Shown: positions 493-12,415 of the stretch, piece after piece
Position numbering within the stretch: position 1 is the stretch's first letter
How the letters are laid out: every line of letters begins with the position of its first letter
Assembly (NCBI GenBank): GCA_964388035.1
Contig: CAYLZE010000109.1
Location: 1-12,415, forward strand
Origin: an uncultured archaeon
Lineage (GTDB): Archaea > Asgardarchaeota > Lokiarchaeia > Sigyniarchaeales > SOKP01
Direction of reading: 5' to 3'
DNA length: 12,415 nt
Program-made: the position numbers and the translations under genes
Notes under the pieces: model-generated
Databases searched by the model: none
What the model was told of the DNA's origin: nothing
Seen by the model: only the letters and a program-made list of their open reading frames with translations

Positions 493-900
493 TTAAAAAG
501 ATAAGACTTTCCTTGAAAGATTTTTTTTCATAGCAATTTCCAATTCCTTTTCTCTGTCAAAAAATATTGCTGCGCCATTTAAAGATTTGGCTAAAGCTAT
601 TGTTAAACAATCAGCAATCGCAATAGCTCTCTCACATTTTATAAGGGCAGCATGTTCTATTAAATTGCTTATAGGGATAATTTTAATTATGTTACTCTTT
701 ATTAAAGCATCGATCTTTACTTTTGCTTCTTCCCAAGATGATTTACGACATAAAATATAGAAAGTTTCTAAAATGGCCATTTCTGAACAATAAGCTTTCC
801 AATCTTCTTTTAATAATTTCTTGAATCTTGTAGCTAAAGCCTCATCTGCTTGAATAGCAATTAAACAGCTTGCGTCAATTGCTACTAATTATTTTTTCAT
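493..900 (-). pseudogene. vapC: VapC-like PIN-domain toxin with premature stop at codon 4
   Basis: The frame of the 493..780 ORF extends up to ATG at 900: MKK*LVAIDASCLIAIQADEALATRFKKLLKEDWKAYCSEMAILETFYILCRK...IADCLTIALA...IFFDRE. PIN acidic residues (AIDAS Asp, LET Glu, IAD Asp) are present. In-frame TAA at 891-889. The start overlaps the 3' end of the upstream small gene, as in vapBC operons. Confidence 0.8.
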
Positions 901-7684: not shown

Positions 7685-8056
7685 TTATTTAATTCTTAAA
7701 ACAACGGTTATTGCTCTTGTGAGTCGAATAACATCCATTACCTTTCCTTTTTCTACAGTAATCTGTTCCCGGCTGATGGCATGGGTAAAATCTCCTTTTC
7801 CTTCACAAATTCTCGCAATTGCAGCGGGATCGCCACTCATTACTATTTCGGCATCTCCAAGCGTTCCTTTACTCATTTTTCCCTTGCGTTGAGTTATTTG
7901 TAAATAAAACGGATCTTCGTTATTTAGGTTGAATTGAAAGCTCATATCCCAATCCACGTCCTTACCTGAAATATTGGTAATAAAAACCGATTGAGCCTTA
8001 CGATTTTCATTTAGCTTTCCCATAATCCTTGATAAACTTTCGAATGCACCACTCAC
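7685..8056 (-). CDS. SCP2 (sterol carrier protein 2-like) lipid-binding domain protein
   Basis: 123 aa; FQFNL...FYLQI..GK...G....AEIVM...G..DF..AI....ITV..G pattern of SCP2 domains. GTG start overlapping the DUF35 stop (GTGA); SD GGAGGT at 8070-8065. Confidence 0.8.
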   Translation of the reverse strand: MSGAFESLSRIMGKLNENRKAQSVFITNISGKDVDWDMSFQFNLNNEDPFYLQITQRKGKMSKGTLGDAEIVMSGDPAAIARICEGKGDFTHAISREQITVEKGKVMDVIRLTRAITVVLRIK

Positions 8057-8553
8057 AATTCATTACCTCCTTCATATTCTGGTTTGCTAATCCAAGTCTC
8101 ATACTCATCTTCGGGCACAAAGAAAAAATCAGTCATCTTTCCTTCTCTGTGTGCAGCAAAAACTGCTCTTACCCGTTTTCCTTTCCTAATTTTTGAAGGT
8201 ACTAAATTCTCGGAAAAGATACCCTGCATTAAAGAAGTACTTGCCCCATCCAGTTTAATGAATCCAATGCCGTAAGGAACTGCTTTAATGAATGCTGATG
8301 TAGTATACCAAACAATCGTGCTCACTTGAATGGTCCCCGTTTGCTTCATTTCGATCCATTCCACGGGGGCATAACATTCAGAACAATTTATTCGAGGAGG
8401 CATCCAAATTTTACCACATTTAGTACATTTCGTCCCTAATAATTTCTTATTCTTCATCAACTCGATGAAAAATTTACTCTGTCCCCCGAAAGTATAGCGA
8501 TATGAAATTTTGATGACATCGCGGACTTGATGGTCTTGGAATTCGTCGCTCAT
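8053..8553 (-). CDS. DUF35 Zn-ribbon/OB-fold protein (thiolase partner)
   Basis: LLGTKCTKCGKIWMPPRINCSEC zinc ribbon, then OB-fold (GTI...PYGIGFIKLDG...G.RVRAVF); ATGA overlap with the thiolase stop. Confidence 0.9.
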   Translation of the reverse strand: MSDEFQDHQVRDVIKISYRYTFGGQSKFFIELMKNKKLLGTKCTKCGKIWMPPRINCSECYAPVEWIEMKQTGTIQVSTIVWYTTSAFIKAVPYGIGFIKLDGASTSLMQGIFSENLVPSKIRKGKRVRAVFAAHREGKMTDFFFVPEDEYETWISKPEYEGGNEL

Positions 8554-9820
8554 GGTTTCTTCAATCCCTCCTCATTTGCCATTATAATAATCGCAGCATA
8601 TGCTGCACCCGGACCTCCAATGGAATGGGCTAAGGCTCTACCATTTTCAATTGTCTTAATTTGGTGTCCTCCCGCATCTCCTCTTAGCTGTAATGCAGCT
8701 TCTCCCGTAGACATGATACCTGTGGCACCCACAGCATGACCGCAACCAATTAAACCTCCACACGGACAACAAGGTAGCTCTCCATCAATCATGGGTCCTC
8801 CTTGTTCAATCCATTTTCCTCCTTCTCCAAATGGAACAAATCCCAATTCTTCATATGATATTACTTCTTGTCCACTAAACGCGTCGTGAAGCTCAGCACA
8901 GTCTATTTGTTGCTTAATTTTACCATAATCCAAGCCAGCCTTCTTATATGCGACTTTGGCCGCATTTATATTTGAATAAAGCCTACCCATATCTTCTCTA
9001 TTTCCGATAAAACAATCAGTATTTGCAGCCCCTACTCCGGTGATCCATATGGGTTTCTCGATTCCTAACTCCTTTACTTTTTCTTCAGGCGCCAGTATTA
9101 GTGCCGCAGAAGCTTCCGAATAAAGGCAACAATCTAACATCTTGAATGGATAGCAGATGATTCGGGAGTTTAGCACATCTTCAACGGTAATTTTCATGGG
9201 AGCCTGTGCCTTAGGATTGTTCATTGCGTTTCCATGATTTTTCACGCTAACAAGTGCCATTTGCTCCTCAGTTGGATTTCCAAATTCTTCAAAATGGGCG
9301 TTTACCATTGACACGTAGGATGATGCTGCCATCATACCCATCGGATATTCTTTCGCTCAAGTAGCAAATGCTATTTGATATACGTCATATCCGCAGAATA
9401 GGCAATGGCATTCAATACTTCTGGAGTGGTGGTCCCAGTTTGCTCGTCATAGCAATCGTTACATTTTTCCACTCCCAAGCACAAACATAAATCGGATAAT
9501 CCCGAGGCTACTTCGGCATATGCCATTCTTACCGTATATCCTCCCGTTGCCCCGCCAGAAGCAATTCTCGTTCCTGGCTTATCGTTCATTCCTATATAGG
9601 AATTTATGAATATATCCGGCATGAATTGTCGCTCAAAAAGTTCGTTGTATATGCCATAAACAGTGGATTCTAGATCTTTGTGGGTAATTTCCGCTCCATT
9701 TTTATTAGCATCTTCAAGGGCTAACTTGGTGGCATCATAAGCAAGTTCAAAATAGGTCTTATCCAAATATCTTGCTCTGAAAGGGGTCACTCCGACCCCG
9801 ATAATCGCTACTTTTCTCAA
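8550..9820 (-). CDS. Thiolase-fold protein (SCPx/Ltp type), intron-interrupted: exon 1 9820-9380, exon 2 9350-8550; 413 aa when spliced
   Basis: The N half (MRKVAIIGVG...GVEK) and C half (KNHGNAMNNPKAQ, DCC..SE..AALIL, ELHDAF, GGLIGCGHAVGATG) of one thiolase sit in different frames. Removing 9351-9379 joins them as SADMTY-EYPMGMMAAS. TTG start. Confidence 0.88.
9351..9379 (-). other. Candidate 29-nt bulge-helix-bulge (BHB/BHL-type) mRNA intron
   Basis: mRNA: CGGAUAU-G-ACGU-AU^A-UCAA-A-UAGC-AUUU-GCUA-C-UUGA-GCGA-AA^G-A-AUAUCCG. Exon stem CGGAUAU/AUAUCCG, central helix ACGU/GCGA (3 of 4 paired), two 3-nt bulges, intron hairpin. Cuts after the second nt of each bulge excise exactly 29 nt and restore the frame. 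Confidence 0.8.
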
Positions 9821-10242: not shown

Positions 10243-11610
10243 GTGAGTACTATAACTTCCAACACGGTAATAGAAATCTCAACAAAGGAGATCTATTATG
10301 ATAAGAAGAATAAAGTTATTTCCATTGAATTACCAGATATTACTTTCATCGGGCATTATAATAAATCCACGAAATTGAAAAAATTACTAGACGATATCTA
10401 TTCTTCCATGAAAGATTCTGGAATGAATCGTGAAAATATTAGAATCATCGATCCAGAGTCACATCAAACTTTATCGGAATCTTTAAGTATAAAAGATCTT
10501 TTCTTCGAGGGAGCAGTCCAAAGCTTGAAGAAACCTTCTGAAGGAGAACAAGCAATATCTTCAAAAGAAGATGATCAAAAGGCAAAGAGGAAAAAACAAG
10601 AAGCTAAATCTAGAAAAACTGCCGATAGAGAGCCAATACGACCAAAACCACCCAGTCAACCCCAACCGCTTAAATCATCTCAAGAAGAAGTGGAGTTTGA
10701 TGTAACAACCATAGAGGAAGAAGAGGGAGAATTCGTCCCACCTCCACCGGGAACTGCACCAAGTGCACCTCCCTCGGGTGCGGGTCCTTCAAGATCTGAA
10801 GTTAAAAGGAGTGAAGAATCCGTACTTTTAAGGGATGAACTCGTCTCGAATTTGACAAAGGAGAGAAATGAAGAGGGCGTGGGGGTTAAGGTTAAGGGAA
10901 CTGATTCTCCAATAACTTATGAAATCAACATGGGCTTTCAATATTATTCCGTCATGATGGAGCAAAAAAGCTATTTATTTTATATCTATTTTTCGCATAA
11001 GAAACTAATGATCATGGACGAAGAGGGTAAGACGGTATATGAAACAACAGTAACCATAACTACCACTAAAAAGGAACCTCCCATCTTAGATTTGAGAATT
11101 GAAGGAGATGGTTTTGAAGTGCACCCTCTATCGGGAAAAGTAGAAGTGAAAAAAGATGCTGTCAATCCACCCTTAATGATTTTCTCGATCTCTCCTTTAA
11201 AAAATGAGCATAGAACCCAAGCAGAAAAGAAGATGGGAGAGAGACGCTTTTTAAATATATACATTGTATTTGAAGGAAAAGCAATTAGTCACACGGTGTT
11301 ATCGGTTATTGTTCAACTAAAGCATTTTCATTTAAACCTTGGGCCTTTCCAAATAGAGATAAGTAAAACCATGGCATACTCTATTTCCTTTTTATCCTTT
11401 GCAATTGCTGTTATTTCCGTGATATACTCCATCTTTTCTTTTGAAAGCTCCTCTTCTTCTGTTGAAATCATCGGAGGATTATCTCCCAGTATTGCTACCT
11501 TTATATTTATAATCAGTTATGCCCTGTCAATCGTGAAGGGATTTCGACCGCTGAAGCAAAAATGGAGCAAGTTCCTAAACTTTGATAAATCGGGAACCAT
11601 TGAAAAATAA
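10243..11610 (+). CDS. Hypothetical membrane protein: N-terminal globular domain, Pro/Glu-rich linker, beta-rich domain, two C-terminal TM helices
   Basis: 455-aa ORF (GTG start). Low-complexity linker (PKPPSQPQP, EEEEGE, PPPPGTAPSAPP); hydrophobic segments AYSISFLSFAIAVISVIYSIFSF and IIGGLSPSIATFIFIISYALSIV. Confidence 0.8.
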   Translation: MSTITSNTVIEISTKEIYYDKKNKVISIELPDITFIGHYNKSTKLKKLLDDIYSSMKDSGMNRENIRIIDPESHQTLSESLSIKDLFFEGAVQSLKKPSEGEQAISSKEDDQKAKRKKQEAKSRKTADREPIRPKPPSQPQPLKSSQEEVEFDVTTIEEEEGEFVPPPPGTAPSAPPSGAGPSRSEVKRSEESVLLRDELVSNLTKERNEEGVGVKVKGTDSPITYEINMGFQYYSVMMEQKSYLFYIYFSHKKLMIMDEEGKTVYETTVTITTTKKEPPILDLRIEGDGFEVHPLSGKVEVKKDAVNPPLMIFSISPLKNEHRTQAEKKMGERRFLNIYIVFEGKAISHTVLSVIVQLKHFHLNLGPFQIEISKTMAYSISFLSFAIAVISVIYSIFSFESSSSSVEIIGGLSPSIATFIFIISYALSIVKGFRPLKQKWSKFLNFDKSGTIEK

Positions 11611-11849: not shown

Positions 11850-12415
11850 TTATAAGTTAATCAATTCACAATTTTCGCCCCTAAGAAGTATGGTTAATTC
11901 ACCAATCTCTTCGGAGGTTAATTCTGTAGAAGCCGCCACAAAGAAACCTCTAAAAATTTTACTAAATTCTTTTTCGACAAAAGTTTTTTTCTTTAGAAAT
12001 CGTTCAACTTTCTCTCTTTCTTTTAGTATAGAAGTGATTTCAACTATAATGGGAGGATCCATTGAAAATCCATCTATTTCTACCGTCGATCTAGATTCAG
12101 AAACAAACCGTTTAGGGTCACTTAATTCTTTACTTTCTATTTTTACTTCGTTAAATCCTTCTTTTTCCAAGATTTTGGAAACTATATTGCGACCAAATTG
12201 TTCAAATGGTTTTCCAAGTGAATTTTGTATGCTTTTTAACACGTTATCTATTTTATCAAATCTTTTATTTGTAGAACTTAACATTTCTTCGAATCGTTTA
12301 TCTATCGCTTCAAATCGTTTATCCGAGGTTTGGTTCATTTCTTCGAATCGTTTATCCGTTGTTTGGTTCATTTCTTTGAATCGTTTATCCATGGTTTGGT
12401 TCATTTCTTCGAATC
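11850..12415 (-). CDS. Coiled-coil repeat protein with C-terminal PD-(D/E)XK-like domain (5' end outside the window)
   Basis: The frame is open to the right edge. DKRFEEMNQT repeats, then LGKPFE...VEIDGF....PIIVEIT...KVERF...GFFVA, resembling restriction-endonuclease-fold domains found after coiled coils in archaea. Confidence 0.7.
   Translation of the reverse strand, partial: FEEMNQTMDKRFKEMNQTTDKRFEEMNQTSDKRFEAIDKRFEEMLSSTNKRFDKIDNVLKSIQNSLGKPFEQFGRNIVSKILEKEGFNEVKIESKELSDPKRFVSESRSTVEIDGFSMDPPIIVEITSILKEREKVERFLKKKTFVEKEFSKIFRGFFVAASTELTSEEIGELTILLRGENCELINL
12249..12415 (-). repeat. Intragenic tandem repeats of 33-nt and 21-nt units
   Basis: Units begin GATAAACGATT on the - strand: partial 12415-12390, 33-mers 12389-12357 and 12356-12324, 21-mer 12323-12303, 33-mer 12302-12270, degenerate 21-mer 12269-12249. 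Confidence 0.9.

What the first reader, a model, noticed from the sequence alone, without database searches (positions are those of the whole stretch)
9342..9393. Candidate bulge-helix-bulge intron inside a protein-coding (thiolase) mRNA
Seen in sequence: the thiolase is broken by 29 nt (9351-9379; mRNA AUCAAAUAGCAUUUGCUACUUGAGCGAAA) that add an in-frame UAG and shift the frame. The insert is its own hairpin (UCAA/UUGA, A-C mismatch, UAGC/GCUA, AUUU loop). With its flanks it forms a 7-bp exon stem CGGAUAU/AUAUCCG, a G-A mismatch, a 4-position central helix ACGU/GCGA (U-G, G-C, C-G, A-A mismatch), and 3-nt bulges AUA and AAG on opposite strands. Established knowledge: the archaeal tRNA splicing endonuclease (EndA) cuts BHB and relaxed BHL motifs after the second nt of each bulge, and RtcB ligates the exons. 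Applying that rule gives AU^A and AA^G, which fall on codon boundaries and yield ACG UAU|GAA UAU CCG AUG (T-Y-E-Y-P-M), one 413-aa thiolase. RNA structure and reading frame therefore point to the same junction. Archaeal mRNA introns are established mainly for cbf5 in some Crenarchaeota. One in a metabolic gene of a probable Asgard archaeon would be unusual, and would suggest that other 'split' genes in such genomes are spliced (inference).
Basis: partly seen in the sequence, partly recalled or inferred. Interest (0 to 1): 0.95.

Follow-up and report, generated by a model that had tools for sequence, protein, structure and literature searches.

The report
tRNA-type mini-intron in Asgard thiolase-fold gene
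A 29-base hairpin that breaks a metabolic gene of a Loki-type Asgard archaeon has the shape that the tRNA-splicing enzyme cuts, and comparison with 85 relatives indicates it is cut out of the messenger RNA, a kind of splicing that the papers I could search report inside an archaeal coding sequence only for cbf5.

Summary
RNA splicing itself is not shown, because no RNA data were available.

- **The break.** The thiolase-fold gene on the minus strand (8550-9820) is broken by exactly the 29 nt named (9351-9379). In uninterrupted orthologs from related Promethearchaeota (Lokiarchaeia) MAGs the halves abut without a gap (DMTY|EYPMG).
- **The fold.** It is a relaxed BHB: a 7-bp exon helix, a central helix with 3 of 4 pairs, two 3-nt bulges and an inner hairpin.
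- **The cut.** Cutting after the second bulge nucleotide is the only cut that restores the ortholog sequence (413 aa).
- **Conservation.** Seven variants of this intron keep the hairpin through compensatory changes. Carriers share rare exon codons that the pairing needs.
- **The gene family.** Among 85 orthologs I found 20 inserts of 29-34 nt at 10 sites. In all 20 the homology-defined junction has BHB geometry. The central helix is 4/4 in 15 of them, against 0.8% at other offsets.
- **Selection.** dN/dS is 0.02-0.05 in interrupted genes.
- **Machinery.** The genome encodes two EndA paralogs and RtcB.
- **Other genes.** Six further genes of this genome are split at BHB junctions, five of them inside a single Pfam domain.

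The scan had already noted the same phenomenon at other loci of this genome and in other Asgard genomes. Those notes are leads that I did not retest.

The parts
9380..9820 (-). Exon 1 of the thiolase-fold gene (TTG start at 9820-9818; ends ...GAU AUG ACG UAU = DMTY)
   Evidence: (Thiolase_N). It is 88-96% identical to the N halves of orthologs.
9351..9379 (-). 29-nt BHB-type mini-intron (AUCAAAUAGCAUUUGCUACUUGAGCGAAA). It is phase 0, between the Tyr and Glu codons.
   Evidence: Absent from uninterrupted orthologs. Present once in the genome at up to 5 mismatches. No flanking direct repeats.
8550..9350 (-). Exon 2 (starts GAA UAU CCG AUG = EYPM; stop at 8552-8550)
   Evidence: Thiolase_C_1, 5e-27; 84-91% identity to orthologs.
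9387..9393 (-). Outer helix h, 5' strand CGGAUAU (exon 1)
   Evidence: Pairs with 9342-9348. Formed in the MFE. Invariant in 7 variants, although the search pattern fixed 6 of these 7 bases.
9342..9348 (-). Outer helix h, 3' strand AUAUCCG (exon 2)
   Evidence: It needs the rare codons GCG and CCG, which all carriers have.
9382..9385 (-). Central helix H, 5' strand ACGU (exon 1)
   Evidence: Pairs C-G, G-C, U-G with 9354-9356; A9385.A9353 is a mismatch. It needs the ACG Thr codon, found in 2 of 76 non-carriers.
9353..9356 (-). Central helix H, 3' strand GCGA (intron 3' end)
   Evidence: It reads GCGG in five of the seven variants.
9379..9381 (-). 5' bulge AU^A; inferred cleavage between 9380 and 9379
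   Evidence: Geometry and ortholog junction.
9350..9352 (-). 3' bulge AA^G; inferred cleavage between 9351 and 9350. It is flanked by A.A and G.A mismatches, so this side is relaxed.
9357..9378 (-). Inner helix h' and loop (UCAA-A-UAGC AUUU GCUA-C-UUGA)
   Evidence: MFE. Across the 7 variants, 3 pairs have changes on both sides and 95% of cells are paired.
9371..9373 (-). In-frame UAG inside the intron; it ends the unspliced reading frame
8053..8553 (-). Downstream gene of the operon: DUF35/ChsH2-type zinc-ribbon and OB-fold protein; overlaps the thiolase-fold gene by 4 nt
   Evidence: PF01796, PF12172.
7685..8056 (-). Third gene of the operon: small SCP2-domain protein
   Evidence: PF02036.

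Best explanation
The 29 nt at 9351-9379 are an archaeal bulge-helix-bulge (BHB) intron inside a protein-coding mRNA.

Proposed mechanism:
1. In the transcript, exon 1 (CGGAUAU-G-ACGU) pairs with the intron's 3' end (GCGA) and with exon 2 (A-AUAUCCG). The intron's own hairpin stacks on the other side.
2. This presents two 3-nt bulges on opposite strands of a short central helix.
3. The host's heteromeric tRNA-splicing endonuclease (EndA alpha-like and beta-like paralogs) cuts after the second nucleotide of each bulge (AU^A, AA^G).
4. RtcB joins the exons, giving ACG UAU|GAA UAU and a 413-aa thiolase-fold protein. The 29-mer is released, probably as a circle.

What is shown:
- the insert, its fold and the exact junction
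- its conservation with compensatory changes
- the same geometry in 19 other inserts of this gene family and in six other genes of this genome
- purifying selection on interrupted genes
- presence of the enzyme genes

What is inferred: cleavage and ligation in the cell, the enzyme identity, and the fate of the intron. The motif is relaxed at the 3' bulge. That fits the broad-specificity (alpha-beta)2 EndA reported for Asgard archaea (PMC5829648).
For: 1. Junction. In uninterrupted orthologs the two halves abut base to base. Only the cut after bulge nucleotide 2 restores ..DMTYEYPMG.. with no stop.

2. Same intron elsewhere. Seven distinct variants at this site come from independent MAGs and metagenome contigs (28-35 nt). 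For the BHB structure, 97.7% of cells are paired against 26-58% when partners are slid. Three hairpin pairs changed on both sides.

3. Exon co-adaptation. All carriers use GCG..GAT..ACG TAT|GAA TAT CCG. ACG occurs in 2/76 non-carriers, CCG in 5/76 and GCG in 10/76. The combination occurs in 0/76.

4. Family-wide rule. There are 20 inserts of 29-34 nt at 10 sites in 13 of 85 orthologs. In 20/20 the homology-defined junction has H(4)-bulge(3) geometry on both strands. The central helix is 4/4 in 15 and 3/4 in 5, against 3/360 with 4/4 at other offsets and none with 4/4 in the mirror geometry. At site C, GAAC/GUUU becomes GAGC/GCUU, an exon synonymous change matched by an intron change. All spliced products are open.

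5. Selection. dN/dS is 0.02-0.05, with dS saturated, for interrupted genes and for both exons of the window's gene. Uninterrupted pairs give the same range.

6. Machinery.
- There are two PF01974 ORFs. The first best matches the A. pernix EndA chain 3p1z_B (1e-35).
- In the second, Ser aligns with the His of 5x89. I read that His, from memory, as the catalytic one.
- There is one intact RtcB.
- ARAGORN recognises only 22 tRNA genes in a 97%-complete genome, and 15 of them have introns.

7. Other genes of the same genome are split at BHB junctions with contiguous Pfam coordinates:
- MoCF_biosynth 2-66|67-143
- FGGY_N 1-78|79-245
- NAD_synthase 4-143|144-242
- Creatininase 2-101|103-238
- Epimerase 1-126|135-240
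- thymidine/AMP phosphorylase DKHS|T|GG
Against: - There is no RNA evidence. No spliced transcript-derived protein of this lineage was found in the 5.8-billion protein collection, and reads could not be searched.
- The central helix has only 3 of 4 pairs, and the 3' bulge is flanked by A.A and G.A mismatches. The unaided MFE leaves an 8x8 internal loop. No such substrate has been tested with an Asgard EndA.
- The invariance of the outer and central helices among the seven variants is partly forced by my search pattern.
- The window's own variant is seen in one assembly only.
- The same-genus ortholog (L004) lacks the intron, and carriers sit in three separate clades of the gene tree. The history therefore needs many precise losses or transfer, and neither is shown.
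- My motif-only census of the genome showed no excess over a mirror-image decoy. The abundance of such introns is not measured.
Confidence: 0.86

Rival explanations
1. Inactivating insertion. The gene is a recent pseudogene and the 29 nt are never removed.
For: The unspliced frame stops at UAG after 149 aa. The same-genus ortholog has no insert. The genome does hold ORFs with single nonsense codons relative to paralogs.
Against: Exon 2, downstream of the frameshift, has dN/dS of about 0.03 with saturated dS. Homologous inserts persist in seven diverged variants with compensatory changes and co-adapted exon codons. Twenty inserts of the family all obey BHB geometry at the exact junction, which random disruptions would not do.
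Confidence: 0.04
2. Translational recoding. The ribosome bypasses the 29 nt, as in T4 gene 60 or the mitochondrial byp elements, or it frameshifts.
For: It is a short hairpin insert with a stop codon soon after the break, which superficially resembles bypass elements (my knowledge of gene 60).
Against: - No matching take-off and landing codons give the ortholog sequence. UAU...UAU would delete the conserved Glu-Tyr.
- The 20 family inserts share no codon-matching rule, but all share the BHB rule.
- Frameshifting cannot pass the in-frame UAG.
Confidence: 0.02
3. A split gene expressed as two polypeptides (149 aa and 263 aa from the ATG at 9341) that assemble without covalent joining.
For: An ATG lies 9 nt after the junction.
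Against: - In the other carriers of this intron a second insert lies 16 nt downstream and breaks that ORF again.
- L017 would fall into five pieces.
- The break lies inside a conserved strand-like segment, not at a domain border.
- The exact BHB geometry would be unexplained.
Confidence: 0.03
4. The insert is removed from RNA, but not by EndA and RtcB. Some other nuclease/ligase or a self-cleaving activity does it.
For: The enzyme identity is only inferred, and the site is a relaxed BHB.
Against: The geometry that predicts all 20 junctions is exactly the EndA substrate geometry, two 3-nt bulges 4 bp apart cut after nucleotide 2. The mirror geometry fails. 29 nt is too small for any known ribozyme intron. 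There are no Rfam hits.
Confidence: 0.04
5. Assembly or sequencing artefact in this MAG.
For: The window's own variant was seen in one assembly only. The genome shows 7% contamination.
Against: Homologous inserts at the same site occur in ten other contigs from independent samples. An artefact would not form a BHB with the flanks, nor coincide with rare pairing codons.
Confidence: 0.01

Closest known systems
BHB intron in the cbf5 pre-mRNA of Crenarchaeota (Watanabe 2002; Yokobori 2009, PMC2738675)
   Same: It is a short intron inside an archaeal coding sequence. It is recognised through a BHB built from exon and intron, removed by the tRNA-splicing endonuclease in hosts with a heteromeric EndA, and lost in some lineages.
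   Different: - The host phylum differs (Asgard/Promethearchaeota).
- The gene is an ordinary metabolic one.
- There are many sites in one gene family (10 sites, up to four per gene, 16-nt micro-exon) and several other genes in the same genome.
- The cbf5 intron is experimentally spliced; this one is not tested.
BHB intron in the 5' UTR of Haloferax volcanii HVO_1309 (PMC7714728)
   Same: It is an mRNA substrate of EndA, shown in vivo and in vitro.
   Different: It lies in the untranslated leader and does not interrupt the reading frame. That paper states that cbf5 was the only other mRNA case reported to 2020.
Non-canonical and multiple tRNA introns of Asgard archaea (PMC11291895; bioRxiv 10.64898/2026.10.13.758758)
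   Same: Same host group, same motif, similar lengths (ARAGORN introns here are mostly 23-43 nt), and patchy gain and loss. The (alpha-beta)2 EndA with L1 insert is reported for Asgard (PMC5829648).
   Different: Those introns are in tRNA genes. Neither paper reports introns in protein genes; I searched their text for 'protein-coding', 'mRNA' and 'intron'.
Unconventional HAC1/XBP1 mRNA splicing (IRE1 cleavage, RtcB or Trl1 ligation); from my own knowledge, and RtcB/XBP1 is mentioned in PMC8718801
   Same: It is spliceosome-independent cut-and-ligate removal of a short segment from an mRNA that changes the reading frame. Ligation is by the tRNA ligase.
   Different: The nuclease (IRE1) and the recognition motif differ, and it is regulated by stress. 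No regulation is known here.
Translational bypass elements (T4 gene 60; mitochondrial byps); from my own knowledge
   Same: They are short hairpin-forming inserts inside ORFs that do not appear in the protein.
   Different: They need matched take-off and landing codons and act at the ribosome. That rule is not met here, while the BHB rule is.

Membership tests
Archaeal BHB (EndA-type) intron | [quoted passage not shown] | tested here: inconclusive
   Both 3-nt bulges are in the right register. The central helix has 3 standard pairs plus A.A, and the 3' bulge is also bordered by G.A. This makes it a relaxed hBHBh'/BHL form. Fifteen of the 20 family members meet the strict 4/4 form.
Archaeal BHB (EndA-type) intron | Flanking helices h (exon-exon) and h' (intron hairpin) | tested here: met
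   There is a 7-bp outer helix and a 4+4-bp inner hairpin, and both form in the MFE. The hairpin covaries.
Archaeal BHB (EndA-type) intron | Cuts at the symmetric positions in the bulges give the functional junction | tested here: met
   A cut after nucleotide 2 of each bulge is the only 29-nt removal that gives the ortholog sequence. The same holds for 20/20 family inserts.
Archaeal BHB (EndA-type) intron | Host encodes a splicing endonuclease able to cut relaxed motifs, and an RtcB ligase | tested here: met
   - Two PF01974 ORFs and one RtcB are present.
- One paralog aligns end to end with A. pernix EndA chain 3p1z_B, including the KPR stretch. I take that stretch, from memory, to be the crenarchaeal-type loop.
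- In the other paralog, Ser aligns with the His of 5x89 that I take, from memory, to be catalytic.
- The substrate range itself was not tested.
Archaeal BHB (EndA-type) intron | Demonstrated removal from RNA (spliced RNA, circular intron, in vitro cleavage) | not testable with these tools
   No reads or transcript assemblies are accessible. The protein search found no spliced product of this lineage.
Translational bypass element (gene 60 / byp type) | Identical take-off and landing codons flanking the skipped stretch | tested here: not met
   UAU...UAU would drop the conserved Glu-Tyr. No codon-match rule fits the 20 inserts.
Transposon or MITE insertion | Target-site duplication and further copies in the genome | tested here: not met
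   There are no direct repeats at the borders. There is a single copy at up to 5 mismatches in 5.47 Mb.
Thiolase (Cys-dependent acetyl-CoA acyltransferase) | Nucleophilic Cys in the N-terminal domain (AACASG in 6esq/7yvy) | tested here: not met
   The aligned residue is Gly (..A[ST]GGATGG..) in the window and in all 82 orthologs where the segment is present. The fold and the C-terminal GHAVGATG motif are kept.

The most novel reading that the evidence does not exclude
Lokiarchaeia carry a dynamic population of EndA-spliced mini-introns in ordinary protein genes. These introns are gained or moved repeatedly at preferred A-rich sites. In this one gene, 10 sites fall into pairs 3-8 nt apart (P about 0.001), with up to four introns and 16-nt micro-exons per gene. 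Exon codons are held in place by the need to pair. On this reading, interrupted protein genes and obligatory mRNA splicing already existed, by a non-spliceosomal route, in the archaeal lineage closest to eukaryotes.
Probability: 0.6. Interest if true: 0.95.

Novelty: new variant of a known kind. Interest (0 to 1): 0.86.

Why it matters
- **Scale.** The searchable literature treats mRNA introns in archaea as a curiosity of one gene, cbf5. Here the same cut-and-ligate machinery appears to be needed to express an ordinary metabolic gene. My own checks find the same in at least six other genes of the same genome and at ten sites of this gene family across Lokiarchaeia.
- **Annotation.** If this is confirmed, gene callers systematically mis-annotate such genes as split or frameshifted pseudogenes in Asgard MAGs. 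Metabolic reconstructions would then undercount functional genes.
- **Evolution.** The closest archaeal relatives of eukaryotes would have protein genes in pieces, with intron gain and loss, micro-exons and exon sequence constrained by splicing signals.
- **Testability.** A 57-nt RNA, two recombinant subunits, and existing metatranscriptomes are enough to test it.

Tried and rejected
1. **Motif-only census of the whole genome.** I required strict BHB with 4/4 central pairs, at least 3 inner pairs, and fusion of two ORFs of at least 80 codons. It gave 865 loci against 900 for a mirror-image decoy. No excess appeared at any hairpin threshold. Same-strand gene boundaries swamp the signal. Only hand-picked top candidates could be verified, and 6 of 10 held.

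2. **Paralog-based search for split ORFs.**
- It found 44 pairs. Most were natural neighbour genes that are fused in a paralog (HdrA-MvhD type) or single nonsense or Sec codons.
- It missed the window's own gene.
- It picked up two in-frame 30-nt introns only as 'single stop' cases.

3. **Search for a recombination tract carrying the intron.** Sliding identity of L001 to the other carriers, compared with its sister L004, showed no clear tract. Origin by ancient presence with many losses, or by transfer, stays open.

4. **Search for a spliced-transcript product.** I searched the 5.8-billion protein collection. The best hit is 92% identical and is itself a fragment from a gene with a site-B intron.

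5. **Rfam.** No family matched in the window.

6. **Considered and rejected.** Intein (29 nt is not a multiple of 3), group I/II intron (too small), alternative genetic code (the frame is shifted).
Full report
**What is in the window.** On the minus strand an ORF starts at TTG 9820 and stops at UAG 9373-9371 after 149 aa (..SADMTYIK*). A second frame is open from 9350 to the stop at 8552-8550 (EYPMGMMAAS...). The first piece matches Thiolase_N and the second Thiolase_C_1. Both match solved archaeal and SCP2-type thiolases in consecutive parts of those chains. Two more genes follow in an overlapping operon: a DUF35/ChsH2-type zinc-ribbon/OB protein (8053-8553) and an SCP2 protein (7685-8056).

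**Orthologs fix the junction.**
- A search of 41 related genomes found one close ortholog (84-91% identity over exon 2) in about 19 of them. Most are single open frames of 409-434 aa.
- With tblastn, the N and C pieces of the window's gene abut at adjacent bases in every uninterrupted ortholog. The protein therefore runs ..SADMTYEYPMG.. with no residue missing or added.
- Record titles identify the group as Promethearchaeota/Promethearchaeia, that is Lokiarchaeia-type Asgard archaea.
- Only one 29-nt removal reproduces the ortholog sequence: exon 1 ending ..ACG UAU and exon 2 beginning GAA UAU... That is the cut after the second nucleotide of the bulges AU^A and AA^G.
- A cut one base earlier would create UAA.
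- The spliced product is 413 aa with no stop.

**The same intron in other assemblies.**
- A pattern search of the genome and metagenome collections found ten more contigs with an insert at this site. Together with the window these give seven distinct variants of 28-35 nt.
- All share the 5' end (A-U) and the 3' end (GCGAAA or GCGGAA). The hairpins differ.
- On the alignment, the BHB structure has 97.7% of cells paired, against 26-58% when the 3' partners are slid by 1-3 columns. Three hairpin pairs changed on both sides (U-A/A-U, G-C/A-U, U-A/C-G).
- Caveat: my pattern fixed the exon sequence and the intron's 3' end. The invariance of the outer and central helices is therefore partly by construction, and only the hairpin covariation is free evidence.

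**Exon codons are co-adapted to the pairing.** The three carriers in the ortholog set use GCG (Ala), GAT, ATG, ACG (Thr), TAT | GAA, TAT, CCG (Pro). Among 76 non-carriers GCG occurs 10 times, ACG twice and CCG five times. The combination never occurs. The third positions of these codons are the G and C residues that close the outer helix and form the central helix.

**A family of inserts in one gene.**
- Aligning 85 distinct orthologous genes showed 20 inserts of 29-34 nt in 13 genes. They lie at ten junctions, at reference nt 32, 378, 381, 441, 444, 457, 531, 539, 917 and 922.
- One gene (L017) has four inserts. Carriers of the window's intron other than the window have a second intron 16 nt downstream, which leaves a 16-nt micro-exon.
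- For each insert I asked which offset restores the ortholog peptide and, separately, which offset has four exon or intron bases pairing across, followed by a 3-nt bulge on each strand.
- The two offsets coincide in 20 of 20. The central helix is 4/4 in 15 and 3/4 in 5.
- At the 360 neighbouring offsets it is 4/4 in 3, and in the mirror-image geometry at the true site it is never 4/4.
- The inserts are not all independent; there are about 11 sequence families.
- At reference nt 381 the central helix is GAAC/GUUU in two genomes and GAGC/GCUU in a third. A synonymous exon change is matched by an intron change.
- The bulges are A-rich; AA^A is the commonest.
- The junctions are clustered. Four adjacent pairs lie 8 nt or less apart, P about 0.0009 for ten random sites. 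Phases are mixed.

**The interrupted genes are functional.** Pairwise dN/dS is 0.02-0.05 with synonymous sites saturated. This holds for interrupted genes against their nearest uninterrupted relatives, and for each exon of the window's gene separately. Uninterrupted pairs give the same values. This excludes long-standing pseudogenes, but not inactivation in the very recent past of this one lineage.

**History.**
- In a maximum-likelihood tree of the spliced coding sequences the window's gene is sister to the uninterrupted gene of the same-genus genome (SH-aLRT support 99).
- The three carriers of this intron lie in three separate clades.
- Sliding-window identity gave no clear recombination tract.
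- Ancient presence with many precise losses, or transfer of the intron with its pairing codons, both remain possible.

**Machinery and context in this genome.**
- There are two ORFs of about 200 aa with the tRNA_int_endo domain.
- One aligns over its whole length with the A. pernix endonuclease chain 3p1z_B (1e-35).
- In the other, Ser aligns with a His of 5x89 that I take, from memory, to be the catalytic His, as expected of a structural subunit.
- One intact RtcB is present.
- Asgard archaea have been reported to have the (alpha-beta)2 enzyme with the insert linked to broad substrate range (PMC5829648).
- ARAGORN recognises only 22 tRNA genes in a genome scored 97% complete, and 15 of them have an intron. 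This fits the heavily interrupted tRNA genes described for Asgard archaea (PMC11291895; bioRxiv 10.64898/2026.10.13.758758).

**Other genes of the same genome.**
- A motif-only census could not separate introns from same-strand gene boundaries: 865 loci against 900 for a mirror decoy.
- I therefore took ten top-ranked candidates and scanned the two flanking half-ORFs against Pfam. In six the halves continue at the predicted junction, five of them within one Pfam domain.

| Place in G000 | Insert | Pfam continuity across the junction |
|---|---|---|
| C47:27882-27911 | 30 nt | MoCF_biosynth 2-66 / 67-143 |
| C149:3761-3790 | 30 nt | FGGY_N 1-78 / 79-245 |
| C45:19136-19165 | 30 nt | NAD_synthase 4-143 / 144-242 |
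| C50:21722-21750 | 29 nt | Creatininase 2-101 / 103-238 |
| C5:29388-29417 | 30 nt | Epimerase 1-126 / 135-240 |
| C32:9825-9854 | 30 nt | nucleoside phosphorylase, DKHS-T-GG |

- The other four were ordinary neighbouring genes.
- Earlier notes of this scan report further cases in this genome (actin, dnaG, E2, Roadblock and others) and in other Asgard genomes. I did not retest those and use them only as leads.

**Rivals.**
- *Transposon-like insertion.* It is unsupported: no target duplication and one copy in the genome.
- *Ribosomal bypass.* It lacks matched take-off and landing codons and has no rule that fits the 20 inserts.
- *Two separate polypeptides.* This fails in the relatives, whose second intron breaks the downstream ORF again.
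- *Assembly artefact.* It does not explain homologous inserts in independent samples.
- *Another RNA-level mechanism.* It cannot be excluded, but the predictive geometry is that of the EndA substrate.

**What is not shown.**
- No RNA or protein data could be reached. A search of 5.8 billion predicted proteins found no spliced product of this lineage.
- The site is a relaxed BHB. The unaided fold leaves the 3-bp central helix open, and no Asgard EndA has been assayed.

**Literature.**
- Full-text searches for BHB introns in Asgard or Lokiarchaeota protein genes found none.
- The two Asgard tRNA-intron papers do not mention protein-gene introns.
- A 2020 study states that cbf5 was the only mRNA BHB intron reported, and adds one in a 5' UTR (PMC7714728).
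- cbf5 intron gain and loss is described in PMC2738675.
- My library does not cover subscription journals.

**Verdict.** The mechanism is a known one (EndA/RtcB splicing of a BHB intron), so this is a new variant of a known kind. The host lineage is new, the gene is an ordinary metabolic one, and the density and turnover are not described in the papers I could search.

Noticed in passing
L104/L105/L106/L108/L111/L113 (for example L105:4467-4580): All carriers of the site-D intron other than the window have a second BHB intron (31 nt) 16 nt downstream. This leaves a 16-nt micro-exon, GAATATCCGATGGGAA, whose bases serve both introns' helices.
   Followed up: partly
Orthogroup alignment /scratch/genes3.aln; reference nt 378/381, 441/444, 531/539, 917/922: Intron junctions in this gene come in pairs 3-8 nt apart in different genomes (P about 0.0009). 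This points to preferred insertion sites or intron sliding.
   Followed up: partly
window 9380-9820 (residues ..GTRIASGGATGGYTVR..): The thiolase-fold protein has Gly where solved thiolases have the nucleophilic Cys. This holds in all 82 orthologs that cover the segment. It is probably not a Cys-dependent thiolase.
   Followed up: partly
G000 C32:2564, C45:2721, C57:20789, C4:113750, C19:11212: In-frame TGA aligns with Cys of paralogs in four HdrA-like ORFs (FPTDDCxI-TGA-ILGP) and in one other ORF. These are likely selenocysteine codons.
   Followed up: no
G000, about 20 places listed: Single in-frame TAG or TAA codons split ORFs relative to intact paralogs, and four TAG align with Trp. ARAGORN also calls an intron-bearing tRNA with anticodon CUA. 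Pseudogenes, strain mixture or suppression are not distinguished.
   Followed up: no
window 781-900, minus strand: The PIN-domain ORF (493-780) lacks its first strand. The missing LVAIDASCLIAIQ.. continues upstream in frame, up to a TAA that is preceded by ATG AAA AAA. It overlaps the end of the upstream 90-aa ORF. The start codon or recoding is unclear.
   Followed up: partly
window 9338-9351 and 9395-9408: An alternative 14-nt pairing (79% complementary) links exon 2 with a more upstream part of exon 1. It would compete with the 7-bp outer helix.
   Followed up: no
L114:170-215: A JGI metagenome contig carries a further variant of the site-B intron (GAUG AA^A ...CAUGGCUUUUCGCCAUG... CAUU AA^C). 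Its hairpin is again different but fully paired.
   Followed up: partly
window 11850-12404, minus strand: An ORF with tandem DKRFEEMNQT-like repeats at its N-terminus has only weak BAR/YkyA-like hits. The neighbouring 455-aa ORF (10243-11610) has no Pfam match.
   Followed up: no
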